This document shows positions 10,921 through 63,256 of a stretch of DNA of 64,000 nt, piece after piece. The DNA is from a virus. Its lineage: Duplodnaviria; Heunggongvirae; Uroviricota; Caudoviricetes. The notes under the pieces were generated by a model that worked only from the letters and a program-made list of their open reading frames with translations, was not told where the DNA came from and searched no databases. Location of the stretch: positions 35,895 to 99,894 of the IMG/VR virus record IMGVR_UViG_3300031521_000016; one strand, 5' to 3'. Both the position numbers and the translations under genes were made by a program. Positions within the stretch are counted from its first letter, which is position 1. Every line of letters begins with the position of its first letter.

Positions 10921-10964
10921 AAAGTATGTTATTTTTTATTTTGGTATATATTCAGTGGTGCACG

Positions 10965-19588: not shown

Positions 19589-19695
19589 TTTCGTTTATTT
19601 AATTTGAATATGTTATAGTACACCCTTATAATTGTTCTGTTCTTGTTTAGAAACTGTTTGTGTGTACTAGATAAATAAAAAAATAAAAACTCATA

Positions 19696-20076
19696 ATGAA
19701 ATTAAAAAGCTTTTCAGAATATATCAAAGAGGATGAAAATGTAGATGCTCCTGTAGCTGCACCTAGTTCAGTAGATGATACTAGAGATGAAACGAAAAAG
19801 AAATTTCGTACAAAGAAAGAGTTACTGGGATATACATCTGAAAGTGAACCTGTAATGGCCGTTATAAAAGTAGGACATACTATTGAACTTACTCCAGACG
19901 ATTTTAAACAACTGAAGAATTTAAAAGTTACTCAGTATGAAAGTGACATGTATGAACATGTTAGAGGAGGTAAAGTATATAAGATCAAGAAAGACGGAAA
20001 AGGAAAATATGTAATTTTTCACTATCATAAAACATTACACAAATTAACTCCAGTAGGTACATTTAGATTAGAGTAG
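19696..20076 (+). CDS. hypothetical protein (only plus-strand gene in the window)
   Basis: Track ORF in an otherwise non-coding plus-strand gap, convergent with the Thg1-like gene. Confidence 0.5.
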   Translation: MKLKSFSEYIKEDENVDAPVAAPSSVDDTRDETKKKFRTKKELLGYTSESEPVMAVIKVGHTIELTPDDFKQLKNLKVTQYESDMYEHVRGGKVYKIKKDGKGKYVIFHYHKTLHKLTPVGTFRLE

Positions 20077-20103: not shown

Positions 20104-20940
20104 TTATTGCAAGTATACTGTCAATATATCGTCGAAGAACTCTTTGTTCTGTGTAAAGATCGGCGTTTCAACAGCTTCCCATTTATTTCGTCTTGCTCCA
20201 TTCTTTAGATACTCAACCTTTTTAATGATTGCTCCTCGCTTCCTGCGGTAATCATACTCATTCCAATTGATACCTTTTTCAAAGATCATATCTTGCATTA
20301 CATCTGTTTTCTTACCGTGTAGTTCTTTTGGGCTGTATAAGCTTTGAGCTACAGAAGAAATAGAATTGCGAGTGGCATCTTGCTGTCTCCAAATGAAATA
20401 ATTTATAACTTCCTGTCTAGCTGGAATAGTGAATACTCTAGCATCAAATTCAGCTAATTTTTTGAAGCATCCCATGATGTCATCATGTGTCTGAAAAACA
20501 AGATTTTCAAATTTTGACAGAGCACGTTTGATTCGCAATTCATTAAACTTATTAGTTGCCATAGAAGCTGATACACTTACAATCTTTTGGATATTATTAT
20601 CGTACCATGCATCGGTTGTTACATCATCGAAATCAGTAATTAATACTGAGATTTCATCAGATTGGACGTAAGCACATTTAGCACCTTGGATATTTTTACA
20701 CAGATATGCTGCAGTAAGATTCATATCTTCAATTAATCCATCATCAAATGGACGTTGCAACCCTTTCGTGTAAGTATGAAATGCTTTTCCATCGATTCTG
20801 ATTACTGCATATGTACGTCTGGGTAGATACATTCGAGTTCTGTTCTCGTAGAACTCTTTCATCCTGTTCCCTAAATCATCTTTTTTATTTTCCACGGTCG
20901 GTGTAATATTTAATGTATAATGCTTGTTGTCTGATGCCAA
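20104..20940 (-). CDS. Thg1-like tRNA 5'-guanylyltransferase (TLP)
   Basis: FYENRTRMYLPRRTYAVIRIDGKAFHTY...RPFDDGLIEDMN...CAYVQSDEISVLITDF matches the Thg1 catalytic core (RxDG, PFD, SDEIS). The start may be the internal M27. Confidence 0.75.
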   Translation of the reverse strand: MASDNKHYTLNITPTVENKKDDLGNRMKEFYENRTRMYLPRRTYAVIRIDGKAFHTYTKGLQRPFDDGLIEDMNLTAAYLCKNIQGAKCAYVQSDEISVLITDFDDVTTDAWYDNNIQKIVSVSASMATNKFNELRIKRALSKFENLVFQTHDDIMGCFKKLAEFDARVFTIPARQEVINYFIWRQQDATRNSISSVAQSLYSPKELHGKKTDVMQDMIFEKGINWNEYDYRRKRGAIIKKVEYLKNGARRNKWEAVETPIFTQNKEFFDDILTVYLQ

Positions 20941-21583: not shown

Positions 21584-22006
21584 TTAGAAACCGAATTGTA
21601 TAGATTTTATCAGTCCTCGTTTTTTTATCTCGAATTCATCTACAGTCATACCAGATTTTGAAAATTCAGTAAATATCATGGGATCTTTTCTTATCCAGCT
21701 TAAAGTTTTACTGTTAAGTAATGATTTTTTCTTGATAAGTCCGAATCTATCTTTATATGCAAAATATGTATCGCCAATTTTTACAATTAGTATATCGTAA
21801 ACATATTTATCTGTAGTAGTACATCTTGGTTCAATTGTATCGCCTATAGCATAATATCCTTTTACGACTAACATCTTAACGTAATGACATGCAAGTCCAT
21901 CATGAATGAAACATTTTGTATCTAATATCGTAGGACTATCTTGATTAAGAAGCGAGCGCGTTTCGAATCTTTTTCTGAGTATTCTATCTAAAGTTGCCTG
22001 GTTCAT
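21584..22006 (-). CDS. hypothetical protein with C-terminal QFGF tail
   Basis: Ends ...KKRGLIKSIQFGF; lies immediately downstream of the PARP-like gene. Confidence 0.5.
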   Translation of the reverse strand: MNQATLDRILRKRFETRSLLNQDSPTILDTKCFIHDGLACHYVKMLVVKGYYAIGDTIEPRCTTTDKYVYDILIVKIGDTYFAYKDRFGLIKKKSLLNSKTLSWIRKDPMIFTEFSKSGMTVDEFEIKKRGLIKSIQFGF

Positions 22007-25114: not shown

Positions 25115-25124
25115 AAAAATAACA
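25115..25124 (-). promoter_or_regulatory. TGTTATTTTT variant
   Basis: 24 nt upstream of the start at 25091. Confidence 0.3.
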
Positions 25125-30984: not shown

Positions 30985-30994
30985 AAATATAACA
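30985..30994 (-). promoter_or_regulatory. TGTTATATTT motif
   Basis: Between terminator 31008-31037 and the radical SAM start at 30958. Confidence 0.4.
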
Positions 30995-37130: not shown

Positions 37131-37895
37131 TTATTTTTTATTTGTTGGTTCTAACCAAGTTCCATCTCTAAATATTAGATCAAGAAAGCCCGGAATATAT
37201 GTTGATTCTACTAAATTCAACAGTTTTAAAGTTTTGACTGTATCATGTTTCATCATCTTCTTAACTTCTTCTCTTATACGTTCATTACTCACAGTCTTTC
37301 CAAGTTTTTCGAGGATAGCAGGTTGCTTCATAGCTTCCCAAATATCTACGTGGATATCGAAGTTTTTTGTGATAGAAAAACGCATAGCTCGCAAGATACG
37401 TAATGGATCGTCCATCATAGTAATCTTTGGATCGATAGGGGTAATCAAAATACGATTACTTAATGCAAGCTTGCCATTGAATAAGTCGATAATTTTGCCC
37501 TCTTCATCTTCTGCCATTGCATTGACAGTAAAATCTCTTCGTTCTAAGTCATCAGCTAAAGTACCCAGTGCTAAGATAGGAGTTCTTGTATCGGGTATGT
37601 AACCGAGCTCTTTTCGTGCTAATACAAAATCAGCAACTAATCCGTCATAAATATGACCATGTGGAAATTTAGCGCGAATAGTAAACATTTCTGGAGTAGA
37701 AAGAAAGATACTATATTTGCGTTCTTTCATCCATTCATACATGACGTTGAAACCTTCAGTGACAGTTAATTCACTGCATAAGCCAGGAACTATACGTTCT
37801 TGTTCATTTAGTACAAAAGTGAAATCGACATCTTTGTTTTCGATACCTAATAGAGCATCTCTTACTACTCCTCCTACTTTATAAATTTTTGGCAT
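37131..37895 (-). CDS. class-II tRNA nucleotidyltransferase head/neck domain (minimal CCA- or A-adding enzyme / poly(A) polymerase family)
   Basis: GGVVRDALLG...DVDF, ERRDFTVNAMA and DDPLRILRAMRF are the canonical PolyA_pol head-domain motifs; only 254 aa. Confidence 0.8.
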   Translation of the reverse strand: MPKIYKVGGVVRDALLGIENKDVDFTFVLNEQERIVPGLCSELTVTEGFNVMYEWMKERKYSIFLSTPEMFTIRAKFPHGHIYDGLVADFVLARKELGYIPDTRTPILALGTLADDLERRDFTVNAMAEDEEGKIIDLFNGKLALSNRILITPIDPKITMMDDPLRILRAMRFSITKNFDIHVDIWEAMKQPAILEKLGKTVSNERIREEVKKMMKHDTVKTLKLLNLVESTYIPGFLDLIFRDGTWLEPTNKK

Positions 37896-38504: not shown

Positions 38505-38514
38505 AAATATAACA
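38505..38514 (-). promoter_or_regulatory. TGTTATATTT motif
   Basis: Between terminator 38544-38578 and the start at 38486. Confidence 0.4.
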
Positions 38515-42394: not shown

Positions 42395-43588
42395 TTATCT
42401 TGATGCACTAGGCCTGGGAATCCTTCCCTTTTCTACTTCAGGTCTATTACTTATTCTACTTTTTTTGACATGCCTAATTTGATCATTACAATTTTTCCAT
42501 CTCATGGATATGAGTAAATTGTTGATATAGTCACGATCTGGAGATTCTTGCATGTCGGATTTGTCAAATGCTTCATTTACTTGTTTCATCAAGTCTTCAG
42601 CTTCATTAACTAAATCTTCATATTCATATTCTCCTTTTCTGATAGCTAACAATTTATCTCTATTTGTGCGTCTTACATTTATTCCTTTGCCTTGCGCAAT
42701 CTCTAATGACATTTCAAGCAAACGTAAAGTATGTGCTAAATTTTTACCGTCATATCCTTTTCCGTGCAACATGTTATCATTGAAACGGTGAACATTCCTT
42801 TTGGCAACCCATTCCCAGTATTCTTTATATTCTTTGCAGTATACAGAATAACCTTCCATGTTAAATTGCATTAAGAAATCTGGTTTTATACCACTTGGAA
42901 TATTACTAAGACTTACATCCATCGCAGTTTCTTCGTCTGAAACAATACCTCTATAGTAATCAGATATGAGAATGCCTTGTTCTCTAGCAAGAAATTGATT
43001 ACGATTATAGTATACACCGTATGTGTTTTTCATATGAGGTAGTGCAACTAATCCACAACAATCTTGTACCATGTCGTTCATTCGTAAGTACTCTTTAACG
43101 TTAATAGAGCCTTGCTTCCATTGAACGAAACAGAATTCTAAAATGCTTTTGCGTTTTTCATCGAACTGTTTAACAATCTTTTTGTTCAATCCTCTAGCTT
43201 TCTTTATTTGTTGAGTAGCATACCCACCAAATGAATTTTTACAGAGCTTAGAGATAAATTTATCTCTATTTTCGAGGATCATATCGAATATTGGTGCTTT
43301 ATAAATTACACAATCTTCAGGTGTATTCAAAAGCTCTATGATATTAGGATTGTTAGTGTATATTAATTCCAAAAATTTTCCTAATTCGTAGAATGTGATA
43401 TCGTTCATTTCATCAGATACTTGATCGTCATATTCTAATCCAAGAATTTTATCGATAGGTTGCATGAATACACCACGTATGTCTGTATCAGAAGTTTCTG
43501 TTGCAGTACCATATGCGTGTGAACCAGCGATAACTTCATAAATTATCAGTCCATTATCTCGTAAATCTTGTAAAGTTAATTTCTTCAT
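42395..43588 (-). CDS. Pol-beta-superfamily nucleotidyltransferase (RlaP/PF10127-like; CD-NTase/OAS-like not excluded)
   Basis: GSHAYGTATETSDTDIRGV is the G[S]-x9-DxD nucleotidyltransferase motif followed by RGV, as in RNA-repair-associated predicted nucleotidyltransferases; 397 aa. Confidence 0.6.
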   Translation of the reverse strand: MKKLTLQDLRDNGLIIYEVIAGSHAYGTATETSDTDIRGVFMQPIDKILGLEYDDQVSDEMNDITFYELGKFLELIYTNNPNIIELLNTPEDCVIYKAPIFDMILENRDKFISKLCKNSFGGYATQQIKKARGLNKKIVKQFDEKRKSILEFCFVQWKQGSINVKEYLRMNDMVQDCCGLVALPHMKNTYGVYYNRNQFLAREQGILISDYYRGIVSDEETAMDVSLSNIPSGIKPDFLMQFNMEGYSVYCKEYKEYWEWVAKRNVHRFNDNMLHGKGYDGKNLAHTLRLLEMSLEIAQGKGINVRRTNRDKLLAIRKGEYEYEDLVNEAEDLMKQVNEAFDKSDMQESPDRDYINNLLISMRWKNCNDQIRHVKKSRISNRPEVEKGRIPRPSASR

Positions 43589-43908: not shown

Positions 43909-43918
43909 AAATATAACA
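43909..43918 (-). promoter_or_regulatory. TGTTATATTT motif
   Basis: Between hairpin 43931-43964 and the start at 43884. Confidence 0.4.
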
Positions 43919-47401: not shown

Positions 47402-47656
47402 TTAAGCATTTTTATTGTGTATTTTTTTCAAATTAGATTCTATTTCAAGAATCTTATCTACTGGTACATTATCTGCATAAAAGCAGAAGTAGTTCCATTT
47501 AGATTTTATTTGGGAATATTTAAAGCCTGGTATCTTAACAAGTTCTAAAAATTCTGAGTCGAGAAAATCGATCGCTTCTTCGTTTAAAAGAGCACATCCA
47601 TAATGTCGTTCCTCTAAATAATATGCATATTTTGTATTAAATTCTGTCGAGGTCAT
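47402..47656 (-). CDS. hypothetical protein
   Basis: Track ORF. Confidence 0.45.
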   Translation of the reverse strand: MTSTEFNTKYAYYLEERHYGCALLNEEAIDFLDSEFLELVKIPGFKYSQIKSKWNYFCFYADNVPVDKILEIESNLKKIHNKNA

Positions 47657-47901
47657 AAAATATTGATAAAGTCACTAATATCTGGTAAATTTTTCTCATT
47701 TGGTAGAATTGAAATGTCGGGTTCACCATCATTGTCAAATTGAACGTAATATATGTCTGGTAAGATTTCCATTATTTCTACGCATTTAGGGCAATAGATG
47801 TTGTACATATTCAGTTGAGCAAGTTCTCTTATAGTCTGTACTGAACGTTCAGTTTCGAAACTGCAGCAAGGACACTGATATTTTCTATATTCGGTTATCA
47901 T
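47653..47901 (-). CDS. zinc-finger protein
   Basis: CPCC...CPKC. Confidence 0.45.
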   Translation of the reverse strand: MITEYRKYQCPCCSFETERSVQTIRELAQLNMYNIYCPKCVEIMEILPDIYYVQFDNDGEPDISILPNEKNLPDISDFINIL

Positions 47902-49861: not shown

Positions 49862-50137
49862 TTATTTTTTGTCCCAATCTTCATCCCACTCTTCTTCATC
49901 AGCTTCTTCTCCAGGTGCAAGTAATGAGTTGATAAATGCAGCTGAACAGCTTTTATGTGTAGGATATGAGTTAAATTCTGGGTAAAAATGATGTACATCG
50001 TGAGGAGTGCCCATTGATATGCTTTTTCCACAATGTTCACAAGTTTTTGTACTTCTCCCTGACTTTACGGGACGATTTTCGTAATAATTTTCAGCTTCAA
50101 GATATTCATGCTTGACTCTTCCTTCTGTATTTTCCAT
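49862..50137 (-). CDS. small zinc-binding protein
   Basis: CEHCGK...HKSC; acidic C-terminus. Confidence 0.4.
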   Translation of the reverse strand: MENTEGRVKHEYLEAENYYENRPVKSGRSTKTCEHCGKSISMGTPHDVHHFYPEFNSYPTHKSCSAAFINSLLAPGEEADEEEWDEDWDKK

Positions 50138-50634
50138 TAGAATCCAAATTTAGTTGATATTTTTCGTTTACGTAAAAGCTTTAGTTCATTCTCATCAGAT
50201 AGTGTGCTCAATAAAGATTCACGTGTTATAGGATATACAAGTTTTCTTATATTCTTAACTATTAATGATTTCTGTAAAGCTAAAGCTAAATTCTCATATT
50301 TTGTGGGCAGCGCCGGTAATTGTATAGTTTCCCAGTTGCCAGATTTAGCAGTAATGTTCTTGGTTTCAATATCTATTTCTAACCCATAATCTTCATTTGA
50401 TGATAAAATCGATATAGCACATGTATTATCTACATTGCCGTAAAAAATCATTTTATCAAAAGTTTGTAGAATATCTATTGCACACGCAGTCAGACGTGAA
50501 ATGAATATATCGTCACAATCAATGAAACTTTCATCCCATAATACACTATGTGCAATATTATGGGATGAAGGCGTTTTGTTCACATCTCTGTAAATGACAA
50601 TACGTTGCATGTTTTTAGAGAATCCTAGAACCAT
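50137..50634 (-). CDS. hypothetical protein with C-terminal KFGF tail
   Basis: Ends ...RKRKISTKFGF; immediately downstream of the Nudix gene. Confidence 0.5.
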   Translation of the reverse strand: MVLGFSKNMQRIVIYRDVNKTPSSHNIAHSVLWDESFIDCDDIFISRLTACAIDILQTFDKMIFYGNVDNTCAISILSSNEDYGLEIDIETKNITAKSGNWETIQLPALPTKYENLALALQKSLIVKNIRKLVYPITRESLLSTLSDENELKLLRKRKISTKFGF

Positions 50635-52695: not shown

Positions 52696-52705
52696 TAATA
52701 TAACA
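52696..52705 (-). promoter_or_regulatory. TGTTATATTA motif
   Basis: Between hairpin 52711-52737 and the start at 52664. Confidence 0.4.
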
Positions 52706-52737: not shown

Positions 52738-52862
52738 TTAACTGAAAAAATGTATTGATGCAAAAAGTTGCGTACGCAATTAAATTACTGCAATGATTTA
52801 CGAAATAACAGTTTCAGTCATAATAAAACCTAATTGATTTTATTATATATCTGCTCCTACTG

Positions 52863-53429
52863 TTAGAAAACGCTTACATTATTATCTTTTCCGGTTTTCA
52901 TTACTTCATCTGTACGATCAGATGTAATAGGCTTGTATTCTAGTGCTTTTCTACTGAAGAACAAGTTATAAAATGAACCGGGGAATTTTTGCAATAAGTT
53001 ATTATGTTCGAGAACAATACCTTGAATTATTTTTTCTTCAATAAAGAATCCGTCTCGTTGGCCTTCTATTTGGTTAGCCAAATTTTGATACATTTTACCG
53101 ATAATGTCGAAATTAGCATTCGGATTAGATTCCTGAACCCATTTCATAAATAGTCCTTGTGAATCTTTTCGACCGGCCATGATTGCATCTACATTATGTT
53201 TAAAAGAAGAATCTGCTTTCAGTGTTACCTGAGCATTACCAGAGATTGTTTTCCACATTTTGTCGTAGAATGCGGTACGTTCATCCATTTTTTGTTTAAA
53301 ACGGTTGTTCAAATCTACTTCATCATTGGAGAACCCGATGAAACCACTCGCAAAAATGAATGTGAAAATAACAGCTATACCAATACCTGCTATTTTAATA
53401 ATTGAAATTCCTTTGAAGTCTAAATTCAT
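52863..53429 (-). CDS. LemA-like membrane protein
   Basis: N-terminal TM and C-terminal HNNLLQKFPGSFYNLFF, resembling the LemA YNxxIxxFPxN tail. Confidence 0.45.
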   Translation of the reverse strand: MNLDFKGISIIKIAGIGIAVIFTFIFASGFIGFSNDEVDLNNRFKQKMDERTAFYDKMWKTISGNAQVTLKADSSFKHNVDAIMAGRKDSQGLFMKWVQESNPNANFDIIGKMYQNLANQIEGQRDGFFIEEKIIQGIVLEHNNLLQKFPGSFYNLFFSRKALEYKPITSDRTDEVMKTGKDNNVSVF

Positions 53430-53462: not shown

Positions 53463-53472
53463 AAATATAACA
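53463..53472 (-). promoter_or_regulatory. TGTTATATTT motif
   Basis: 34 nt upstream of the start at 53429. Confidence 0.35.
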
Positions 53473-54291: not shown

Positions 54292-54301
54292 AAATATAAC
54301 A
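54292..54301 (-). promoter_or_regulatory. TGTTATATTT motif
   Basis: Upstream of hairpin 54262-54291 and the start at 54250. Confidence 0.35.
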
Positions 54302-54928: not shown

Positions 54929-55246
54929 TTATGTTATTTTAATCCAGCCTTCTCCGCCTGGACCACATTCATTTTCTATAGTTATCTTTATCAGTTTTTG
55001 ATTCTCATAACCTCCAGCTCTTATAGCTATTGGCATAAATTCTTTTTCTAACATCTCTTCATCGAAGGGATGACTATCTCCTAAGCATACAAATACATGA
55101 TTCTCTTTCTCGTTAAGATATACATCACCGTATTCACCATTGCAAAGAATTGCAATGGCATACGCATAATGTTGAAGTTTAGCAAAATCGATAGGTCCCG
55201 GATATTTAACGTCTTCGTTAAATTCTTTGTATTTCTTTATTCTCAT
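54929..55246 (-). CDS. hypothetical protein
   Basis: Track ORF. Confidence 0.45.
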   Translation of the reverse strand: MRIKKYKEFNEDVKYPGPIDFAKLQHYAYAIAILCNGEYGDVYLNEKENHVFVCLGDSHPFDEEMLEKEFMPIAIRAGGYENQKLIKITIENECGPGGEGWIKIT

Positions 55247-56964
55247 TAGATTGCAGGTTTTGTTTCTTCAGCAGCAGGTTCAGGAGTACTTTCTGGTTCA
55301 GGAGTAGTTGCTGGTTCAGGAGTAGATGATGATCCAGAACCTGAGCTATCACTAGATGGTTCAGATGATGATGAACTTCCTCCAGCTGGAGCTGATGGAG
55401 CAGTATAACTTAGTCCTCCTGCGGACGCAGTATTTTCACCACCATTTTCTTCTTCATCTTCTTTAATCATACGTTCATTCATAGCTAATACGTCCTTATC
55501 CATGTGTAAATATTGTTGAACTAAGAATCTCATAGAGAAGAATGGTTTGCCTTCTGCCTTTTGAAGCTGTGACATAGAACCGATAAATTCTAGACGCTTA
55601 GTCATAATCTCTTGTTCTCTGATTTCTTCGAACATGTTATCTTTAACGAAACGCAATCCTAATGATGACTTAAACAGCTCATCATCTTCAAGATGATTAT
55701 ATTTAAGACACATTTGAATCCAGAGTGGTTTCAACAATATTTCTTGGAATGCTGAACGAATTCTGCTTACAAATTTACCGAAACGTACTTCTTCACGGTC
55801 TACACCAGTAGCAGCCGAACCAGACATTTGTCCACCAGAATTGGCTTTATCGAAACGAGCAAAAGGAATTTTTGAATCTTCTTTAAGCTTATTCATCCAA
55901 TACATCAATAGTGTACTATTTTGTAAGTCTGGACCATCACCACCCATAGTGGATATATCTATTTGTTCACCGTTCTTAGAAGGGAATAAGTAATTCTTGT
56001 AGAATTGACCTACAGAAGGTGATCCGTTGATTCTTAATTGGCCATCGTTAGAATCCAAGATTATGTCTTCTTTATAGATCGCCATTAATTCAGCTAAGGT
56101 TTCTTTTGCTTTCTGAGGAGATTTCGATCCAATTGGAACAATCATTTTTACTCTCCAAGTAGCATTCATCATAGTCCACATAACCATTGCATTCTCGATC
56201 ATTCTTAGAAGATTGAAAGAACGTACCAGATTTTCAACGTATGATATTCTTGAAGGTAAATTGCCTTTAGCATAAGAGATGTATACAACTTGTGTATCAT
56301 ATAGCATTCTTGTCATAGCAGGTCTATCAGGGTAAAGGTACCATACCTTTTTCATTATTCCGTTTTCCTGTAAGACATCAGGCTTCAGAAATGCGGCATC
56401 TAATTCTTTAAACCCTAGTACATTTTCACCTTTTGCATCAAATACAATTTCAAATGCTAGTACTCCATCTACTAAAAATTGACGGAAATATTGCCAACCT
56501 GTGATATCAGCTCCAAATCCATGTCTATTATAGATTCGTTTATATTCATCACTTATGGCATCTCTTATTTCCTCACTTATATCTAAGTTTGCCACAGAAG
56601 GATAAGCAAAATAGTTAGTTTCATCATATACAATACCTTCATCAGCAAGTGTGGTCATCATGAAATCGATTTCACCATTTAAAGCAAATTTTCTCAGATA
56701 ATCTCTTCGTGATGGGTAATCTTTATCGAAAATAGCTGTGTACTTTTTCTGTGAAACATCAGCTAATGCAAATGCATAAGCTAAATCTTTTGGAGCATAT
56801 TCTCCCAGTGTAGCTTCAGTAGGTCCGATAGCTCTTGAATTTCGTATGACTAGATCATCATACTTCATCCCTAAACTAGATATCTTTCGGATACCATCAC
56901 CTACACTGACAAGTGATTTAACTCCAAAACGATCAAAAAATCCGCTTTCAAATAATTTAGACAT
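55246..56964 (-). CDS. portal protein (T4 gp20-like)
   Basis: FGKFVSRIRSAFQEILLKPLWIQMCLK, ENAMVMWTMMNATWRVKMIVPIG and the following helical segment align with T4 gp20 ([50 protein letters not shown]). C-terminal S/P/E-rich tail. Confidence 0.65.
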   Translation of the reverse strand: MSKLFESGFFDRFGVKSLVSVGDGIRKISSLGMKYDDLVIRNSRAIGPTEATLGEYAPKDLAYAFALADVSQKKYTAIFDKDYPSRRDYLRKFALNGEIDFMMTTLADEGIVYDETNYFAYPSVANLDISEEIRDAISDEYKRIYNRHGFGADITGWQYFRQFLVDGVLAFEIVFDAKGENVLGFKELDAAFLKPDVLQENGIMKKVWYLYPDRPAMTRMLYDTQVVYISYAKGNLPSRISYVENLVRSFNLLRMIENAMVMWTMMNATWRVKMIVPIGSKSPQKAKETLAELMAIYKEDIILDSNDGQLRINGSPSVGQFYKNYLFPSKNGEQIDISTMGGDGPDLQNSTLLMYWMNKLKEDSKIPFARFDKANSGGQMSGSAATGVDREEVRFGKFVSRIRSAFQEILLKPLWIQMCLKYNHLEDDELFKSSLGLRFVKDNMFEEIREQEIMTKRLEFIGSMSQLQKAEGKPFFSMRFLVQQYLHMDKDVLAMNERMIKEDEEENGGENTASAGGLSYTAPSAPAGGSSSSSEPSSDSSGSGSSSTPEPATTPEPESTPEPAAEETKPAI

Positions 56965-57727
56965 TATTAGTATTTATTTTTCTCCCTGGATACAATATCA
57001 TCTCTTGTATTTTTATTTTGTATGAAAATGGTGTAAGAAAATAAGTGTTCATACCATCATTATACCAACGCTTAGATATAGCTGCATTTGACATATTTGA
57101 TATTGCTATATTTGAATATAGGTTAGATTTTAATGTAGGTTTAATTCTTTTCTTATATGGTTTACTTTTCTTCAGAATGGGATTTTTATACTTCCATATA
57201 AATCCCATAGAATATTCTCGTTCTCCTCTGCAGCAATCTGTTACATGTCCGATACCTAATGTTCTCTGTATTTCTTTAGCTGAAGGCCATTCTTTTATAA
57301 AAACTCCATCTAGATCATATTGCAATACAACCTTACTTCTATTAGAATTTAGATTGTTTATTAATCTTTCACGATGAATATATGAATAAGCTTCTCTTGC
57401 TTCAGCATATCCTTTGCTAGAATATTTAGATGGTCGTTGTTTAAAGTTTTTTCCTGTGAATAGACTTGTGAATGCATTAAATGCATAAGCTGATGCTCTA
57501 TTTCTATATATTCTCCATAGTAACCAATGTGCAATAAAATGTTCTCTAGCTGTCAAAAATACTAGATTTGTATCTTCATCGCCACCTCCCATAGATTTCA
57601 TAATAATATGATGACGTTCATAATATACACCATATTCTTTTACTCTATCTCTACGAGTTTCTATCAAGCTATGATAATGCCAAATATAATTCATTTTATA
57701 TATCGTCCTCGTCAAAGAATAAGTCAT
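56957..57727 (-). CDS. HNH homing endonuclease
   Basis: ERHHIIMKSMGGGDEDTNLVFLTAREHFIAH HNH motif. Confidence 0.7.
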   Translation of the reverse strand: MTYSLTRTIYKMNYIWHYHSLIETRRDRVKEYGVYYERHHIIMKSMGGGDEDTNLVFLTAREHFIAHWLLWRIYRNRASAYAFNAFTSLFTGKNFKQRPSKYSSKGYAEAREAYSYIHRERLINNLNSNRSKVVLQYDLDGVFIKEWPSAKEIQRTLGIGHVTDCCRGEREYSMGFIWKYKNPILKKSKPYKKRIKPTLKSNLYSNIAISNMSNAAISKRWYNDGMNTYFLTPFSYKIKIQEMILYPGRKINTNNV

Positions 57728-58382
57728 ATTTTATGTCATTCAGAGTAGTATTCTTTTCTTCGAAGACATTTATTTCTTCAGTTGCAGTTTTATTGTACTC
57801 TTCAGGAATTTCTTTCTCTTTTTCTTTTTTGACTTTCTTTTCTTTTATTTTCTTAATCGCAACAGTATTTTCTTTATTCCAGTCAAATACTAATCCGTTA
57901 TAGTTTATATTCCCAAATTTATGTCTTGGTAAAGTAGGCAGTTTACCCCAGTCCTCTTTTTCAATTTTACCACACTTTAGAATATACGAATTGAAATATT
58001 CTTTTCTAGTATGAATCATGAATGATGTAGACAAAGATGCTACATTATCATGCTTCAGAAAATCATGCATAGTCTTTTCATTAAAATAGAGAAGATTGAA
58101 TCCTATAAATGCATCAGCTTTAACTTCTAAAACATAAGTTATGCATAATCTATGCCATTTATCTGTATCTTTTGCATTTGCTCCGTATGTAAAAATGTAG
58201 ATGTTTCCTTTTTCTAGAGGCTGAGTAGTTTCATTTTCTTTCAGAATATTCAAGAAATAGTCTGCAGTTTTCAATTTGTTAATCGAGATTTTCTCCTTTC
58301 TATAGACTTTAGAAAATTCAGTATCTAAATTTTTTATAGTTTCTATAAGCTTTTCTAGATTGTACACTTTATTGGTTTCCAT
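57696..58382 (-). CDS. hypothetical protein
   Basis: Track ORF. Confidence 0.45.
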   Translation of the reverse strand: METNKVYNLEKLIETIKNLDTEFSKVYRKEKISINKLKTADYFLNILKENETTQPLEKGNIYIFTYGANAKDTDKWHRLCITYVLEVKADAFIGFNLLYFNEKTMHDFLKHDNVASLSTSFMIHTRKEYFNSYILKCGKIEKEDWGKLPTLPRHKFGNINYNGLVFDWNKENTVAIKKIKEKKVKKEKEKEIPEEYNKTATEEINVFEEKNTTLNDIKYDLFFDEDDI

Positions 58383-58878
58383 ATAAGAATTTTTCTGTTA
58401 CTATCATAAATTGCCAGCCTCTATCTTCAGCCCATTTCTTAGCAGTTTGAAATTTATGCATATTTATAGCATATTCTTTCATTTGTTCATTATGGGCTAA
58501 AATACGTTTTTCCGTTAGTCTGCTAGTAGGGAGTGTTGGTTTTTCAAGCTTCTTTGACGGTTTCACTTCTATGATGAATTCAGTAAATGTACCGTCAGCT
58601 TGTCTTACTTTCATATAGAAGTCTAAGTTATATATGCAAGTTTTATTTTGGATAGGATGTAAGTATGGAATCTGAATAGACTCCGATGACCATTTTACTA
58701 CTTGTGCATTTATATCGCAAAAGGTAGCAAATTTCTGTTCCCAGCTAGATCTAAATATTATCTTAGAGTAATCTCCAACATATTTTTCTGGGTATATGAT
58801 CTTGTAATAGCCCTGTTTCGTAGCAGCATTTTTACGAGGGACTAAATTTTTTATGTTTAAGCTTCTTCCCATAATCAA
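58369..58878 (-). CDS. hypothetical protein (possible PD-(D/E)xK nuclease fold)
   Basis: NLDFYMKV...EFIIEVKPS resembles a D...ExK motif; weak. Confidence 0.35.
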   Translation of the reverse strand: MIMGRSLNIKNLVPRKNAATKQGYYKIIYPEKYVGDYSKIIFRSSWEQKFATFCDINAQVVKWSSESIQIPYLHPIQNKTCIYNLDFYMKVRQADGTFTEFIIEVKPSKKLEKPTLPTSRLTEKRILAHNEQMKEYAINMHKFQTAKKWAEDRGWQFMIVTEKFLYGNQ

Positions 58879-59222
58879 AAATTATGTACACCATCTGTTT
58901 CAGATATCGAAACTTTCATTGAAGATTTAACTGGATAGAGGTCTCTCCAGCCTTTTGCCATACCATTTTTACACATCTGTGTATAATATGCAAAAGCATT
59001 TGATGATTTAGTGGGATCAAAACTGCGCCAGTATTTTATGCAATCTTCTATCGCATATGATATACAATCTTGTCTATCATCTTCATATTTGTACTTAAAG
59101 ACTTTCGAAATTTCATTCGCCATTCTCATTAGTAATTCAACAGCTCTAGGAGTTAGTACTCCGGCTTCTTTAGATTTTATAATCTCAGCTAACAATTCTT
59201 TATTGTCACAGTATTTGGCCAT
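58875..59222 (-). CDS. late sigma factor (T4 gp55-like)
   Basis: DNKELLAEIIKSK, ISYAIEDCIKYWRSFD and SNAFAYYTQMC parallel T4 gp55 (NNKELLQAIIDWK; IADGIEASIKGLHNFD; NPHAYITQAC). Confidence 0.6.
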   Translation of the reverse strand: MAKYCDNKELLAEIIKSKEAGVLTPRAVELLMRMANEISKVFKYKYEDDRQDCISYAIEDCIKYWRSFDPTKSSNAFAYYTQMCKNGMAKGWRDLYPVKSSMKVSISETDGVHNF

Positions 59223-59315
59223 TTTAGTAAATGATATTAGTTATTCTGAACTATTATTAGTAGTAGAGAATTTATAGTATTTATATGGCTAGCTGTTATT
59301 AGTTCTAACAACAAA

Positions 59316-59344
59316 AAGCCTGAATGAAATTAATCACTCAGGCT
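59316..59344 (-). terminator. hairpin AAGCCTGA...TCAGGCTT followed by TTTTTGTTG
   Basis: Downstream of the 858-aa gene stop. Confidence 0.5.
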
Positions 59345-59365
59345 TTTCATGAAATATATTAAATA

Positions 59366-61942
59366 TTAGTCTAGTTCTGGTTTATCTTTAGATTCCATTA
59401 CTTTCTTAACTTCTTTAGGATATGCATCATAAATTGCGTTAAGTACTCCATTATAGTCTTCATCATCATCACTGATTTTGTGTGATTTCTTAAGAGTTTT
59501 AATTTCTTTTATGATTTCAGTGAAACTTACTTCTCCGATGTTTGCTTTTACTTCTTTCAGTGCAGCTTTAGCTTCTGATGAAGCTTCATTTAAATCTGCA
59601 TTCATAGCATCTAAAAGTCCTTTAACACCACTGATTGTTCCGTTGATACTTTCATTTGAAGTAAAAACTGCATTCATATCGTCACGAATTTTTTCTAGTG
59701 AGTCAAGTGCTTTTGCAAGTTTAGCTTTAATTGTATCTGGAGTTGGTTCTTCTTCCTCTTCTGTTTCTTCAGATTCTGGTTCTTCTTCAGGTTCTGGTTC
59801 TTCTTCAGGTTCTTCTTCTGTAGCTGGTTCTTCTTCAGCAGCTGGTTCTTCTTCAGACTCAGGTGACTTTTCAACAGTTTCAGTTTTCTTTTTATCTGTA
59901 GGTGCTTCAGCATCAAAATCGATAGTCAAATTTTCTTCTTCTTCGAGTTCGTTTACTTTTACATTTCTTTTTTCTACAAATGCTAGTTCACCATCACATT
60001 CAACCTGTATCAATTCATCATCTCCTTTTGATGTATAGTCAGAAGCTAAAACATTTACTTCTTTACCTGCATATGGTCCTTCTTGATCATCAGATATTGT
60101 AGCTTTTACGTAAGAAGGTTCTCCTTCTTCTTCTGGATCAATAGCTGTAGCAGTAGGTGCATCTTCAGTTTCTTTAGATACAAGAGCTTCTTGTGGAAGC
60201 AATTCTTCTTCTTGAAGTTTATCTCCTACCTTTTCATTTTTATCAAATGCTTGTTTCTTTTCATCTTCAAGAGAATCTAATTCTGTAACAGAAATAGTTT
60301 TTGTAGTACCAGCAGAAGTTACTACTGTAACTTTTTTATTGCTACTATCAACTGATTGTACAGTAGCTTGTTCTCCTGATTTCAGTTTTACATCATCTCC
60401 TGGTGAAACACCAGCATCTGATACGGCAGATTCAAATTTCTTTAATTCTTCAGAAAGACTTCTGTAATCATTTCTTAGTTTAGAAAGTTGTGTAGTTAAA
60501 GTTTCTTCTAACTGTTTAACCTGAGCAGATGCTCCTAAGAATGGATCTTTTTTAACACCTTCTATTTTAGACATTTCAGCTTCTAAAATAGACATATTTT
60601 TCAAAAGTTCAGTTTGTTGTTTCTTGATACCGAAGATTGCAGCTTTATCTTTTTCAATATATTCTGCCAAAGATTCAGTTATATCGTATCCTAAAAATTC
60701 TAGAATAATATCTCTTGCTTGTGTTACGTTGATTCCAGTATAGAATTCATTAGTCATCATAGAATCATTTACTTTGTTCAAGTAAATTTGTTCATCAACT
60801 TTCATGAGTGTTACATAAGAACCTACATATCTTTTTGATGAGATAACTTTGGCGAAATCAATTTCATAGAAGTTTTCGAACATGTCAGTTACGAATTGGA
60901 TATCTGATGCAATTTTTGCTTCATCCAATCTGAACATTCCAGTTGATACTAAACTTTTTGCTATGTTGGTAGCTGGTACATTTTTACCGTTGAATTTTAC
61001 TACGGTTTTGTTTTCGTTTTCGAAAATTTCAACTTTATTTCTACCTACATAGAAAGATGCTTTCCCTTCTTTTACGAAGAAATGTGGAGAATTAATGATA
61101 CCGTAAGAACGTTTAATATTTTCCGATAATGTAGAAAATTCTTCTTGTCCTACTTTTTCTACCACAGAACCTACTTTCTTGTATACATCACCTTTAATAG
61201 TGAAGTATTCTTTTCCATTTTCTAAAAGAATTGGAGAATATACTGTCTGTAAATCTGAATTACCATTTTCAGCTATAAGTTGTAAACTACCATTTGATGA
61301 AGTTTGTACTTTCTTTAAGCTTTCTAGCAATTTTTTAGCACCACTGTGGAAAGTGAATTTAGAAAGTGTATCAATAACGTTACTTCTAGAAGAAGAAGTA
61401 GGGTCTTCAAAGTGATTTTCTAATTTTTCAACAGTAGCTTCGTATAAGAAATTACCCTTTCCCTGATTAAGCTCATATATAGCTTTAGAAAGTAGAACAC
61501 TTTCTTTACGGGCTTCGAAATTTTCTTTTAATGTCTTTAAAGATTCGCTAACATTATTGTCCCATGTGAAATTGCCTAATGCAATCATAAAGTCTTCAAT
61601 GATAAGATAATCCTGAGAAATGTTTTCTACCACATATCTTTCAAATTTATCCAACGTGTATCTTAAAGTTGGATAATGATAAGCTTGTGATTCTCTTATG
61701 TGTGATATAGCTTGTGCTATACCAAGATTCTTTACTCCTTCATACTTATCAGCAGTTTGAATAAATCTAGTAACATGCTTATCTGCATCCTTGATGTTCT
61801 TCAATTTTTCTACTATAGCTTTAGTCAATTGTTCTTCGGGTACAGAAGTGTATGTTTCAAGAACTTCTTTACAAACATTTTTGCACTCTAGTGATGTTGT
61901 TTTCTCTAAGAGTTTGTTTACTCGTTTGTTCAAATTAAGCAT
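59366..61942 (-). CDS. large coiled-coil protein with acidic EEEP tandem repeats (858 aa)
   Basis: Track ORF with long coiled-coil stretches and a repeat block (EEEPAAEEEPATEEEPEEEPEPEEEPESEE) encoded by 15-nt tandem repeats at about 59750-59870. Confidence 0.6.
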   Translation of the reverse strand: MLNLNKRVNKLLEKTTSLECKNVCKEVLETYTSVPEEQLTKAIVEKLKNIKDADKHVTRFIQTADKYEGVKNLGIAQAISHIRESQAYHYPTLRYTLDKFERYVVENISQDYLIIEDFMIALGNFTWDNNVSESLKTLKENFEARKESVLLSKAIYELNQGKGNFLYEATVEKLENHFEDPTSSSRSNVIDTLSKFTFHSGAKKLLESLKKVQTSSNGSLQLIAENGNSDLQTVYSPILLENGKEYFTIKGDVYKKVGSVVEKVGQEEFSTLSENIKRSYGIINSPHFFVKEGKASFYVGRNKVEIFENENKTVVKFNGKNVPATNIAKSLVSTGMFRLDEAKIASDIQFVTDMFENFYEIDFAKVISSKRYVGSYVTLMKVDEQIYLNKVNDSMMTNEFYTGINVTQARDIILEFLGYDITESLAEYIEKDKAAIFGIKKQQTELLKNMSILEAEMSKIEGVKKDPFLGASAQVKQLEETLTTQLSKLRNDYRSLSEELKKFESAVSDAGVSPGDDVKLKSGEQATVQSVDSSNKKVTVVTSAGTTKTISVTELDSLEDEKKQAFDKNEKVGDKLQEEELLPQEALVSKETEDAPTATAIDPEEEGEPSYVKATISDDQEGPYAGKEVNVLASDYTSKGDDELIQVECDGELAFVEKRNVKVNELEEEENLTIDFDAEAPTDKKKTETVEKSPESEEEPAAEEEPATEEEPEEEPEPEEEPESEETEEEEEPTPDTIKAKLAKALDSLEKIRDDMNAVFTSNESINGTISGVKGLLDAMNADLNEASSEAKAALKEVKANIGEVSFTEIIKEIKTLKKSHKISDDDEDYNGVLNAIYDAYPKEVKKVMESKDKPELD

Positions 61943-61981
61943 TTTTTATTTCGTTATTTTGTCTATATATTATTGTGTGCA

Positions 61982-62346: not shown

Positions 62347-63213
62347 TTACTCCCAATATCCTTCACCAAATTTTTGATTCTGTGATGGAATAGTAGAAGA
62401 TTCTGTAAATGGAGCAGTAAAAGTAACTCCATCATTTACTATTTGATTATCTAAAGATTGTTGTGTCAAGTCTAATGGATTCCCTAAGTCTGTAGGAGAT
62501 GTGCTTACAGTGCTTACATTAATCTGTGTATGTTGAATTGTAGATTGTGCGTGCATCTCTTGTTTTGGATCGAAGATAGGATAAAAGGTTTCTAATTCTA
62601 GATCGAAAGTTATAGTAGTTCTGCTATTTTCGCCGTACGTATAATCGAACAACTTTGTATTCGTATATGACTCTGGAAATCCTACTTGAACTGGTACTAC
62701 TGTACCACCATAATTTACTCTATAAACTAGAGTCTTGTAGAATATTTTGATAAGCTCTTGTGTAATCTTAAATGAATCAATGACTGAATCTACTAAGACT
62801 GTCACTGTAAAGTTCATGCTCAATGGTATAGAATTCAAGTATGAATTATATCTGTTAAGTTGACCCTCTTCTTCTTTTGTATAGAATCCTCTAACGAATC
62901 TACTAGTCATTTGACCAGATAGGACTGAAGTGCCAGTTAATGATAATGAACCTCTTGGAATTGGATCGTAATTTCCTTCTATCATGTTGGGTTTACAGTC
63001 ACCCCAATCTATGAAATAGTCTTGTATAAAACGTTCATCGCCTGAAAATGCATAATAAAAGGGTACCTGAATCACATTAGTAACAGTATCAGACTCTATA
63101 TTATTGATAGAAATCTTACCATTCAGTGAATTGATAAGACCAACTATGATTGTTCTAATTAGTACATCGTCAGTATTATACTTATGATTAAATCCACTTT
63201 TTTCTGTTATCAT
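62347..63213 (-). CDS. hypothetical structural protein (C-terminal ...GYWE as in T4 tail tube gp19 ...DYWE)
   Basis: Track ORF. Only the C-terminal motif matches T4 gp19; the length (288 aa) differs. Confidence 0.4.
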   Translation of the reverse strand: MITEKSGFNHKYNTDDVLIRTIIVGLINSLNGKISINNIESDTVTNVIQVPFYYAFSGDERFIQDYFIDWGDCKPNMIEGNYDPIPRGSLSLTGTSVLSGQMTSRFVRGFYTKEEEGQLNRYNSYLNSIPLSMNFTVTVLVDSVIDSFKITQELIKIFYKTLVYRVNYGGTVVPVQVGFPESYTNTKLFDYTYGENSRTTITFDLELETFYPIFDPKQEMHAQSTIQHTQINVSTVSTSPTDLGNPLDLTQQSLDNQIVNDGVTFTAPFTESSTIPSQNQKFGEGYWE

Positions 63214-63256
63214 TTCCTTATTATTTATTCTATATATTAAGTGTGTACAGAGTGTA

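What the first reader, a model, noticed from the sequence alone, without database searches (positions are those of the whole stretch)
58875..59286. gp55-like late sigma factor with a TATAAATA box upstream
The 115-aa protein parallels T4 gp55 in three blocks. On the coding strand TATAAATA, the T4 late-promoter consensus, occurs at 59279-59286, about 57 nt upstream of its start. This implies a T4-type late transcription system in a genome that is otherwise mostly on one strand. A gp33 or gp45 partner was not recognised in this window.
Basis: partly seen in the sequence, partly recalled or inferred. Interest (0 to 1): 0.5.

Follow-up and report, generated by a model that had tools for sequence, protein, structure and literature searches.

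The report
Short gp55-type phage late sigma factor
The gene is a real but unusually short relative of phage T4's late-gene sigma factor, in a large uncultured T4-like phage. The TATAAATA box in front of it is probably not this phage group's late promoter, which comparison with relatives suggests reads RATATATARAAA.

Summary
ORF 58875-59222 (-) encodes a 115-aa member of the T4 gp55 late sigma family. Support: PHROG 234 E=2e-16; PDB 7d7c_F E=4e-5; an AlphaFold model whose top structural hit is gp55. It is a minimal form: the four-helix sigma-region-2 domain plus a 20-residue disordered tail. It lacks T4's helix-loop-helix motif, long linker and SLDFLY clamp-binding motif. Over 80 metagenomic relatives, huge phages (LR756500, Lak) and cultured jumbo phages (PTm1, PAU) share this short form.

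It is not enriched (10 in the window, 13.4 expected) and is the only intergenic copy on the coding strand. It lies upstream of gp55 in only 4 of 82 loci.

A different element, RATATATARAAA, sits 14-26 nt before the start codons of late genes across all lineages. These include the gp15-like gene, the 858-aa gene, major capsid, prohead protease and gp4. It has no -35 element and is almost never upstream of gp55 (1/50 against 70/203). gp55 genes instead follow a terminator and a TATAAT-like box.

No gp33 or gp45 was detected in the window. The gene is a new member of a known kind; the promoter assignment is inferred, not shown.

The parts
58875..59222 (-). Gene for a 115-aa short gp55-family sigma factor (stop codon included)
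   Evidence: ORF. phrog_234 E=2.4e-16. T4 gp55 7d7c_F E=4.2e-5. BLASTP against T4 gp55 E=2e-10. Fold hit 7d7c_F, probability 1.0. 17 close homologues, nearly all exactly 115 aa.
58938..59204 (-). Residues 7-95: four-helix sigma-region-2-like domain (helices 7-20, 25-39, 47-67, 76-95)
   Evidence: AlphaFold model with mean pLDDT 85 and over 90 through this stretch. Aligns to T4 gp55 residues 10-108. T4 functional residues map as N13=N7, L54->I38, E70->D52, E77=E59, F86=F68, Y97=Y79, T99=T81. R57->V41, D74->Y56 and H95->F77 differ.
58878..58937 (-). Residues 96-115: disordered tail ending in the conserved C-terminal motif ...VSISxxxG-V-[YH]-N-F
   Evidence: pLDDT about 50. The tail pattern [VI]S[IL]...G[IVL][YH][NST][IFL]-COOH is conserved in 82 loci and in about 25 of 34 diverse cluster representatives. 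It replaces T4's H5, linker and SLDFLY motif. A role as a docking motif is inferred only.
59278..59285 (-). TATAAATA octamer, 55 nt before the gp55 ATG. An overlapping second TATAAAT lies at 59270-59276.
   Evidence: Not enriched. Not conserved. PWM score 1.1, rank 364 of 127,966 positions. It occupies the position where relatives carry TATAAT, TATAAA or TATAAC after the terminator.
59313..59348 (-). Intrinsic-terminator-like hairpin with a U-run after the 858-aa gene, separating it from gp55
   Evidence: RNA fold -24.6 kcal/mol, z=-6.5, 0 of 200 shuffles as stable. An equivalent hairpin plus T-run lies upstream of gp55 in most relatives. It was not reported by the simple terminator scan.
61963..61970 (-). 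ATATATAG late-type promoter-like element, 20 nt before the ATG of the 858-aa gene (59366-61942)
   Evidence: PWM rank 3, 14.9 bits, with a matrix built without the window. The same element precedes the orthologous gene in at least 8 lineages.
63230..63237 (-). ATATATAG late-type element, 16 nt before the ATG of the gp15-like tail sheath stabiliser gene (62347-63213)
   Evidence: PWM rank 2, 15.2 bits. The gene matches Pfam PF16724 T4-gp15_tss at 39.3 bits against a cut-off of 25. Its orthologue in L006 (54% identity) is preceded by GGATATATAGAAAAAT in otherwise unrelated G+C-rich sequence.
10944..10951 (-). ATATATAC variant, 23 nt before the 521-aa AAA+ ATPase gene (9355-10920), after a terminator-like hairpin
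   Evidence: (rank 12, 10.3 bits). The ATPase is annotated.
52843..52850 (-). GATATATAAT, the best PWM hit in the window. It is intergenic but 178 nt from the next called start.
   Evidence: rank 1, 17.2 bits.
55246..58872 (-). Genes packed directly behind gp55 with no intervening gap: gp4-like head completion nuclease (58369-58872), gp2-like DNA end protector (57696-58382), HNH/NUMOD homing endonuclease (56957-57727) and portal (55246-56964)
   Evidence: phrog_218 E=3e-42, phrog_429 E=5e-11, phrog_655 E=2e-34. phrog_213 portal E=2e-61. Pfam TnsA-like_N.

Best explanation
The ORF encodes a minimal member of the gp55 family of phage late sigma factors, in a large uncultured T4-like myovirus. 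The phage belongs to the group that includes LR756500, the Lak megaphages, PTm1 and PAU.

Shown: the protein consists of the sigma-region-2-like four-helix domain of gp55 plus a 20-residue flexible tail. It keeps most residues that in T4 contact the RNA polymerase clamp helices (D52, E59) and form the pockets for the flipped -12 and -8 adenines (Y79, T81, F68, N7). It lacks the helix-loop-helix motif, the long linker and the SLDFLY clamp-binding motif.

Inferred: it binds the host RNA polymerase core and directs it to a single -10-like element with no -35 element. For this phage group that element is most probably R-ATATATA-R-AAA, not TATAAATA. This element sits 14-26 nt before the start codons of late genes in every lineage that carries the short sigma: the gp15-like gene, the 858-aa gene, major capsid, prohead protease and gp4.

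Inferred: the TATAAATA/TATAAAT box before gp55 is the counterpart of the TATAAT-like box that follows a terminator upstream of gp55 in relatives. On this reading it is a host-sigma-type -10 element that lets the sigma gene be expressed before late transcription, as T4 gene 55 is (own knowledge). The conserved C-terminal hydrophobic motif may tether the factor to a partner such as a sliding clamp. That is speculation.
For: Family membership.

Short architecture is the rule in this group:
- 82 loci encode proteins of 113-124 aa, with one of 145 aa.
- A profile search finds 2252 clusters at E<=1e-3. The best 150 are mostly 111-140 aa, with the domain ending near the C-terminus in nearly all of them.
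- PTm1 ORF-243 is 120 aa and PAU gp112 is 155 aa.
- Alignment with T4 (185 aa) and cyanophage S-H38 (152 aa) shows the missing C-terminal part.

T4 functional residues are taken from PMC7892883 and mapped through.

Late-type element:
- ATATATAA is the top enriched upstream 8-mer in the marine clade (36 observed, 0.65 expected) and in LR756500 (6 against 0.11). GATATATA is top in the other lineages (24 against 1.05).
- 202 copies occur in 620 kb, of which 87 lie within 60 nt upstream of a same-strand start. The figures for TATAAATA are 111 and 8.
- 58 unique sites have the motif end 14-26 nt from the ATG.
- There is no conservation from -42 to -2, so no -35 element.
- It precedes major capsid, protease, gp4 and the gp15-like gene in LR756500, the protease in L083, and the gp15-like and 858-aa genes in the window.

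gp55 upstream regions carry ATATATAR in 1 of 50 against 70 of 203 for other genes. They carry TATAA[ATC] in 39 of 50 against 105 of 203 (sequences).
Against: No transcript ends or binding data exist. The link between this sigma and RATATATAR is co-occurrence only.

Many marine loci are near-identical, so the counts overstate the number of independent observations. The pattern does recur in at least 8 diverged lineages.

The element's tight spacing to start codons could reflect a role other than promoter.

The split into classes is not clean. In the window a PHROG 'virion structural protein' gene (52863-53429) is preceded by the other motif, TGTTATATT, and an ATATATAC variant precedes an AAA+ ATPase.

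gp4, gp2 and portal are canonical late genes. Here they have no promoter-like element other than the box before gp55.

In T4, removing the helix-loop-helix motif impairs open-complex formation. It is therefore not obvious that a protein without it works alone.

The Lak-A1 locus (26% G+C) was inconclusive.
Confidence: 0.6

Rival explanations
1. The phage runs a T4-type late system in which this sigma recognises TATAAATA. The box at 59278-59285 is a genuine late promoter driving the operon gp55-gp4-gp2-portal.
For: There is an exact match to the T4 consensus in the only long intergenic gap of this cluster, directly after a strong terminator. The downstream genes gp4, gp2 and portal are late genes in T4 and have no other promoter-like element. 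The pocket residues for the -12 and -8 adenines (Y79, T81) and N7 are conserved. Jumbo phage CBB, which has a gp55-like gene, has an ATAAATA motif before its structural genes (PMC5259590). Nominal P=0.035 for this one region.
Against: There is no enrichment: 10 copies against 13.4 expected, and this is the only intergenic coding-strand copy. It is not conserved upstream of gp55 (4/82). It is absent before the window's other late genes, which carry ATATATAG instead. It scores low against the group's conserved element. A sigma gene driven only by its own promoter could not start expression. The -9 pocket residue H95 is F77 here.
Confidence: 0.12
2. The box has no function. It is a chance A+T-rich octamer. 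gp55 and the genes behind it are transcribed by read-through of the terminator from the ATATATAG element before the 858-aa gene, or from an unrecognised promoter.
For: The probability of at least one TATAAATA somewhere in the window's 72% A+T intergenic DNA is 0.57. The box lies 55 nt from the ATG, whereas the conserved elements lie 14-42 nt away. In relative L006 a GIY-YIG endonuclease gene is inserted directly upstream of gp55 with no gap.
Against: 39 of 50 relatives have a TATAA[ATC] box in the equivalent place after the terminator, against 105 of 203 other upstream regions. The terminator hairpin is strong at -24.6 kcal/mol, so a restart signal is expected.
Confidence: 0.2
3. The protein is not a working promoter-specificity factor. 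Without the helix-loop-helix motif it may be only an RNA-polymerase-binding modulator that competes with the host sigma. Alternatively it may need a separately encoded partner that supplies the missing part.
For: In T4, truncating the helix-loop-helix motif or mutating R114 compromises open-complex formation and transcription. The short form lacks H5 and has no residue aligned to R114. Three of ten tested T4 residues differ: R57->V41, D74->Y56, H95->F77.
Against: The short form is strongly conserved and very widespread: 2252 clusters, with invariant F68, F77, Y79 and T81 in the DNA-pocket region. This argues for retained DNA recognition. A single -10-only element co-occurs with it before late genes. 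C-terminally truncated T4 gp55 still supports basal transcription.
Confidence: 0.1

Closest known systems
Phage T4 gp55 (late sigma factor; PDB 7D7C/7D7D)
   Same: It has a homologous sigma-region-2-like four-helix domain: 34% identity over 99 residues, and gp55 is the top structural hit. The residues for the -12 and -8 adenine pockets are conserved, as are two of the three acidic residues that contact the clamp helices. It is encoded among T4-type morphogenesis genes. A single A+T-rich -10-type element with no -35 element lies before late genes in this phage group.
   Different: It is 115 aa rather than 185 aa. It has no helix-loop-helix motif (second half of H4 plus H5, R114), no 21-residue linker and no SLDFLY clamp-binding motif. 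Instead it has a 20-residue tail ending G-V-[YH]-N-F. H95->F77, R57->V41 and D74->Y56 differ. The candidate cognate element is RATATATARAAA rather than TATAAATA. No gp33 or gp45 was seen in the window.
Cyanophage gp55 (for example Synechococcus phage S-H38, 152 aa, annotated 'sigma factor for late transcription')
   Same: It shares the gp55 region-2 domain (about 40% identity over query residues 4-83), in a T4-like myovirus.
   Different: The cyanophage protein carries about 45 more C-terminal residues aligning with the T4 H4/H5 region. It lacks the KNGxAKGW signature and the tail of the short form.
The 'minimal sigma factor' of group 2 jumbo phages (Iyer et al. 2021, PMC7824862) and the gp55-like CBB_244 of Rak2-like phage CBB (PMC5259590)
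   Same: Group 2.2 of that survey includes Lak and PTm1, which carry the closest database relatives of this protein. These are phages with no RNA polymerase of their own but with small phage-encoded sigma factors. For CBB the authors reported a gp55-like gene, no gp33 or gp45, and an A+T-rich motif before structural genes.
   Different: Those papers give no architecture, tail motif or promoter for the short form. CBB's predicted late motif is ATAAATA, closer to T4. In GenBank PTm1 ORF-243 is 'hypothetical protein' and PAU's protein is named only gp112. I did not verify that the survey's 'minimal sigma' is this same family.
Region 2 of cellular sigma-70 / ECF sigma factors
   Same: The fold is the same: Foldseek hits to sigma-S, SigE, SigK and sigma-A region 2. 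There are sub-threshold matches to Pfam Sigma70_r2 (14.3 bits) and TIGR02937 (22.4 bits).
   Different: It has no region 4 (or 3), so no -35 recognition module. All scores are below the curated cut-offs.

Membership tests
gp55 family of phage late sigma factors | Significant sequence or profile similarity to the gp55 N-terminal (sigma region 2-like) domain | tested here: met
   phrog_234 E=2.4e-16. PDB 7d7c_F E=4.2e-5. BLASTP against T4 gp55 E=2e-10. tblastn hits to annotated gp55 genes of cyanophages and Acinetobacter phage 133.
gp55 family of phage late sigma factors | Four-helix sigma-region-2-like fold (H1-H4) | tested here: met
   AlphaFold model with pLDDT 85 and four helices. Best Foldseek PDB hit is 7d7c_F, probability 1.0, TM 0.70, followed by sigma region 2 domains. 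The Foldseek E-value is only 3e-3.
gp55 family of phage late sigma factors | Acidic H3 residues that bind the RNA polymerase clamp helices (T4 E70, D74, E77) | tested here: inconclusive
   D52 and E59 are conserved; D74 is Y56. Binding itself is not testable here.
gp55 family of phage late sigma factors | Pocket residues for flipped -12, -9 and -8 bases (T4 N13, L54, R57, F86, H95, Y97, T99) | tested here: inconclusive
   Five of seven are kept or conservatively replaced (N7, I38, F68, Y79, T81). R57->V41 and H95->F77 differ. F68, F77, Y79 and T81 are invariant within the short family.
gp55 family of phage late sigma factors | Helix-loop-helix motif (long H4 plus H5, R114) that chaperones template-strand DNA | tested here: not met
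   H4 ends at residue 95 and the rest is a disordered tail. There is no counterpart of T4 residues about 113-153.
gp55 family of phage late sigma factors | C-terminal sliding-clamp-binding motif (T4 SLDFLY) on a flexible linker | tested here: inconclusive
   The T4-type motif is absent. A different conserved hydrophobic C-terminus, G[IVL][YH][NST][IFL], sits on a disordered tail. Its partner is unknown.
T4-type late transcription system (gp55 + gp33 + gp45, TATAAATA promoters) | TATAAATA enriched upstream of late genes | tested here: not met
   Window: 10 copies against 13.4 expected, and 1 intergenic coding-strand copy. In 52 dereplicated loci, 8 of 111 copies lie within 60 nt upstream of a start, against 87 of 202 for ATATATAR.
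T4-type late transcription system (gp55 + gp33 + gp45, TATAAATA promoters) | Late promoters consist of a single -10-type element with no -35 element | tested here: met
   For RATATATARAAA, 59 sites show no position from -42 to -2 with more than 0.31 bits. That these sites are promoters is inferred.
T4-type late transcription system (gp55 + gp33 + gp45, TATAAATA promoters) | gp33 co-activator and gp45 sliding clamp (with gp44/62 loader) encoded by the phage | not testable with these tools
   None was found in the 64-kb window. The genome is much larger: the exact protein lies on a 140-kb contig and a relative on a 308-kb contig. Marine-clade relatives encode a T4 gp44-like loader with 37% identity. 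Iyer et al. report gp33 orthologues in group 2 jumbo phages.
T4-like (Straboviridae-type) myovirus morphogenesis cluster | Neighbouring T4 core late genes | tested here: met
   gp15-like PF16724. gp4 phrog_218 and gp2 phrog_429. Portal phrog_213 (Pfam Portal_T4 in the L006 relative). gp23-type capsid and protease in relatives.

The most novel reading that the evidence does not exclude
The short gp55 proteins form a large, uncharacterised subfamily of single-domain sigma factors: about 95 folded residues plus a docking tail, with 2252 sequence clusters. They occur in environmental T4-like large phages and megaphages. On this reading they work without the helix-loop-helix motif that T4 gp55 needs. 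They have also shifted promoter specificity from TATAAATA to RATATATARAAA, with the -9 base changing from A to T together with the -9 pocket residue changing from His to Phe. This would make them the smallest known autonomous promoter-specificity factors for bacterial RNA polymerase.
Probability: 0.35. Interest if true: 0.6.

Novelty: new member of a known kind. Interest (0 to 1): 0.35.

Why it matters
The practical gain is annotation. The closest cultured carrier, PTm1, lists this protein as 'hypothetical protein', PAU's is named only gp112, and Pfam and NCBIfam do not reach threshold. As a result the late-transcription factor of a very widespread group of large environmental phages goes unrecognised.

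If the inferred pairing of short sigma and RATATATARAAA is right, it gives a simple rule for marking late operons in these genomes. It also offers a natural experiment on how a region-2-only sigma reads a promoter and how one pocket substitution changes specificity.

By itself, a gp55 homologue in a T4-like jumbo phage is expected. Similar cases have been reported before (CBB; group 2 jumbo phages).

Tried and rejected
1. IMG/VR scan with the protein found no relative.
2. Megablast of 6 kb around the gene against GenBank phages found nothing. The phage has no close sequenced relative there.
3. The search for gp45 and gp33 used PHROGs on all 106 ORFs, Pfam on the three unassigned 200-232-aa ORFs and tblastn with T4 gp45, gp33, gp44, gp62, RpbA and DsbA. 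Nothing turned up in the window.
4. I considered the small ORF 63643-63966, which ends ...KSLTDFINIL (compare T4 gp33 ...TNTLDFLL), as a gp33 candidate. BLASTP against gp33, a PDB sequence search and a homologue search all gave nothing. It remains an unsupported lead.
5. I first suspected that the strong window motif TGTTATATT was the late promoter. I rejected this because it reads as an extended -10 element (TG-n-TATATT) with a T-rich -35-like block. It precedes mostly non-structural genes and is not the motif conserved before late genes in relatives.
6. I suspected a presence/absence polymorphism of the HNH endonuclease between L002 and L003. It was only a different start-codon call.
7. The Lak-A1 locus was read with TAG recoded. 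At 26% G+C the motif analysis was uninformative.
8. An alternative genetic code is not needed for the window. Coding density is 94% with the standard code, and read-through of the gp55 TGA would add only 6 codons.
Full report
**The observation**

The minus-strand ORF 58875-59222 (ATG to TGA, 115 aa) is present as described. There are 55 nt between it and the ATG, and a second TATAAAT lies at 59270-59276.

Upstream, after the stop of an 858-aa gene, is a strong hairpin followed by a U-run at 59313-59348 (-24.6 kcal/mol, z=-6.5).

**Is it gp55-like?**

Yes.
- PHROG phrog_234 'late sigma transcription factor' matches residues 2-87 at E=2.4e-16.
- The only significant hit among PDB sequences is T4 gp55 (7d7c_F, E=4.2e-5).
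- BLASTP against T4 gp55 gives 34% identity over 99 residues, E=2e-10.
- An AlphaFold model (pLDDT 85) has four helices (7-20, 25-39, 47-67, 76-95) and a disordered tail (96-115).
- The model's best structural match in the PDB is again 7d7c_F (probability 1.0, TM 0.70), followed by region 2 of cellular sigma factors.
- Pfam Sigma70_r2 and NCBIfam TIGR02937 match below their cut-offs.

**What is kept and what is missing**

The cryo-EM study of T4 late transcription (PMC7892883) defines three sets of features:
- H3 acidic residues E70, D74 and E77, which contact the RNA polymerase clamp helices.
- Pocket residues N13, L54, R57, F86, H95, Y97 and T99, which hold the flipped -12, -9 and -8 adenines.
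- A helix-loop-helix motif (long H4 plus H5, R114), a linker, and a C-terminal clamp-binding motif starting near residue 175.

Through the alignment the window protein has N7, I38, D52, E59, F68, Y79 and T81 at seven of these positions. It differs at R57->V41, D74->Y56 and H95->F77.

The protein stops about 20 residues after H4. It has no H5, no linker and no SLDFLY motif. It is therefore a region-2-only form of gp55.

**The short form is a family trait, not a truncation**

- Seventeen close homologues are nearly all exactly 115 aa.
- 80 metagenomic loci from freshwater, marine and sediment samples, plus LR756500, encode proteins of 113-124 aa, with one of 145 aa.
- A profile search of 1.84 billion representatives finds 2252 clusters at E<=1e-3. 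The best 150 are mostly 111-140 aa, and the domain ends near the C-terminus in nearly all of them.
- The best GenBank phage hits are huge phages: LR756500 at 48% identity, the Prevotella Lak megaphages at 44%, and other LR75xxxx genomes.
- Cultured jumbo phages PTm1 (ORF-243, 120 aa, annotated 'hypothetical protein') and PAU (gp112) also carry it.
- The tail is variable, but it usually contains [VI]S[IL] and ends G[IVL][YH][NST][IFL]-COOH.
- A conserved hydrophobic extreme C-terminus on a disordered tail suggests a docking motif. That it replaces T4's clamp-binding motif is my inference and is untested.

**Is TATAAATA the late promoter here?**

The evidence says no.
- The window has 10 copies against 13.4 +/- 4.0 expected.
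- Five of the six coding-strand copies lie inside genes.
- The chance of one copy in a 143-nt stretch of intergenic composition is 0.035. The chance of at least one in all intergenic DNA is 0.57.
- Only 4 of 82 loci have the octamer within 150 nt upstream of gp55. In L071 and L074 it is a one-base variant of the clade's TGTATATAAT box, and in L045 it lies before the terminator.

**What is conserved instead**

K-mer enrichment in upstream regions of the relatives gives one clear element.
- ATATATAA: 36 observed against 0.65 expected in the marine clade, and 6 against 0.11 in LR756500. GATATATA: 24 against 1.05 in the other lineages.
- Across 52 dereplicated loci (620 kb), 87 of 202 ATATATAR copies lie within 60 nt upstream of a same-strand start. 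The figure for TATAAATA is 8 of 111.
- Fifty-eight unique sites give the consensus R-ATATATA-R-AAAAA. The motif end lies 14-26 nt before the ATG, with a mode of 17-20.
- No position from -42 to -2 is conserved, so there is no -35 element.
- The element precedes the orthologue of the 858-aa gene in at least eight diverged lineages.
- In LR756500 it precedes the major capsid, prohead protease, gp4 and gp15-like genes. In the marine contig L083 it precedes the protease.
- A matrix built without the window picks out 63223-63240 and 61956-61973 among its top three window hits.
- The first of these lies before a gene that matches Pfam T4-gp15_tss. Its L006 orthologue (54% identity) is preceded by GGATATATAGAAAAAT in otherwise unrelated G+C-rich sequence.

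A single conserved -10-type element, with no -35 element, before late genes in exactly the phages that carry the short sigma is what a gp55-type promoter should look like. I therefore propose RATATATARAAA as the cognate late promoter.

If the element is aligned with TATAAATA, the -12 and -8 adenines are kept and -9 becomes T. The -9 pocket residue H95 is Phe here. This correspondence is suggestive only.

**How gp55 itself is probably expressed**

- Upstream of gp55 the late-type element is nearly absent: 1 of 50 regions, against 70 of 203 for other genes.
- Most lineages instead show a terminator hairpin followed by TATAAT, TATAAA or TATAAC: 39 of 50 against 105 of 203.
- The window's TATAAATA/TATAAAT pair occupies that position.
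- I read it as a host-sigma-type -10 box for pre-late expression of the sigma gene. This matches the logic of T4, where gene 55 is not a late gene (own knowledge).
- I cannot exclude that it is a weak late-type promoter for the gp55-gp4-gp2-portal block, or a chance match.

**Partners**

No sliding clamp or gp33 was found in the window. The window is a fraction of a genome of at least 140 kb and probably over 300 kb. Marine relatives encode a T4 gp44-like clamp loader. A published survey reports gp33 orthologues and 'minimal' sigma factors in group 2 jumbo phages, which include Lak and PTm1 (PMC7824862). Dependence on a clamp and gp33 therefore stays open.

**Comparison and novelty**

A gp55-like gene in a jumbo T4-like phage has precedent. 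CBB has a gp55-like gene, no gp33 or gp45, and an ATAAATA motif (PMC5259590). Group 2 jumbo phages are a second precedent.

The gene is a new member of a known kind. Three things are not, to my knowledge, described:
- the region-2-only architecture with a conserved tail;
- its very wide distribution;
- the distinct conserved element before late genes.

A search for papers mentioning 'late promoter', 'ATATATA' and 'phage' together returned none.

**Verdict**

Noticed in passing
window, 14 intergenic sites on the minus strand, e.g. 54293-54301, 53464-53472, 52697-52705, 43910-43918, 38506-38514, 30986-30994, 25116-25124, 19350-19358, 14105-14113, 5993-6001, 4781-4789: TGTTAT[AT]TT recurs 5-42 nt before start codons (one site lies 397 nt from the next called start). 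GTTATATT occurs 8 times in upstream regions against 0.19 expected. It reads as an extended -10 promoter (T-x-TG-T-TATATT) with a T-rich block about 20 nt upstream. It mostly precedes non-structural or unknown genes. It is probably the host-sigma (early or middle) promoter class of this phage.
   Followed up: partly
window 56957-57727 (-) and 7715-9340 (-); L006 9415-10023; L001 20394-22007 and 28634-30433: Homing endonucleases of different families sit at different places in the same gp55/gp4/gp2/portal neighbourhood in different lineages. The window has an HNH/NUMOD gene between gp2 and portal. L006 has a GIY-YIG-like gene (identified from its sequence motifs only, not profile-tested) directly upstream of gp55. 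LR756500 has two large HNH genes. The cluster looks like a hotspot for mobile endonucleases.
   Followed up: partly
window 63643-63831 (-) and 47653-47901 (-): Two small proteins end in the same C-terminal peptide...SLTDFINIL and ...DISDFINIL. This resembles the T4 clamp-binding tails (gp33 ...TLDFLL, gp55 SLDFLY). The second is a zinc-ribbon protein. Neither shows detectable similarity to gp33.
   Followed up: partly
window 21584-22006 (-), 6046-7452 (-), 50137-50634 (-): Three otherwise unassigned proteins share a basic C-terminus ending in FGF...KKRGLIKSIQFGF...KKRGDIKARQFGF and ...RKRKISTKFGF. This may be a common targeting or docking peptide.
   Followed up: no
window 59366-61942 (-): The 858-aa protein has a long acidic low-complexity stretch and no family match. 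A gene of variable size (582-1117 aa) holds the same position upstream of gp55 in all lineages, and in at least eight of them it is preceded by the ATATATAR element. In LR756500 the element instead precedes a transposase gene inserted just upstream.
   Followed up: partly
window 20104-20940, 37131-37895, 42395-43588, 5572-5976 (all -): There is a set of RNA/tRNA-repair-type enzymes: a tRNA-His guanylyltransferase-like protein, a CCA-adding tRNA nucleotidyltransferase, a further nucleotidyltransferase and a polynucleotide-kinase-like ATPase. ARAGORN finds no tRNA gene in the window.
   Followed up: no
window 13398-14084 (-), plus unmapped ORFs: A Sir2-like protein (phrog_2162, E=2e-48) is present. 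Among the small ORFs there are PHROG matches to cysteine dioxygenase, a cation efflux protein, heptose kinase/adenylyltransferase and endolysin/transglycosylase families. I did not map these to individual ORFs.
   Followed up: no
window 19696-20076 (+) and 19668-19685 (+): This is one of only two plus-strand ORFs among 106 called genes. It is preceded 10 nt upstream by TAGATAAATAAAAAAATA, a near match (13.4 bits) to the late-type matrix with ATAAATA in place of ATATATA. The same variant, TAGATAAATAGAATAAAA, lies before the nuclease gene 4918-5547.
   Followed up: no
L092 (Prevotella phage Lak-A1) e.g. upstream of 13837, 29778, 39033: Several Lak-A1 genes are preceded by ...TATGTATCTTTG..., which fits the Bacteroidota -7 promoter consensus TAnnTTTG (own knowledge). 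This is consistent with its Prevotella host. The window phage's promoters do not look like this.
   Followed up: no
L083 19517-20158 and other marine-clade loci: A T4 gp44-like clamp-loader gene (37% identity to T4 gp44) lies about 9.5 kb downstream of the short gp55 gene in the marine clade. At least that lineage therefore has T4-type clamp-loading machinery.
   Followed up: no
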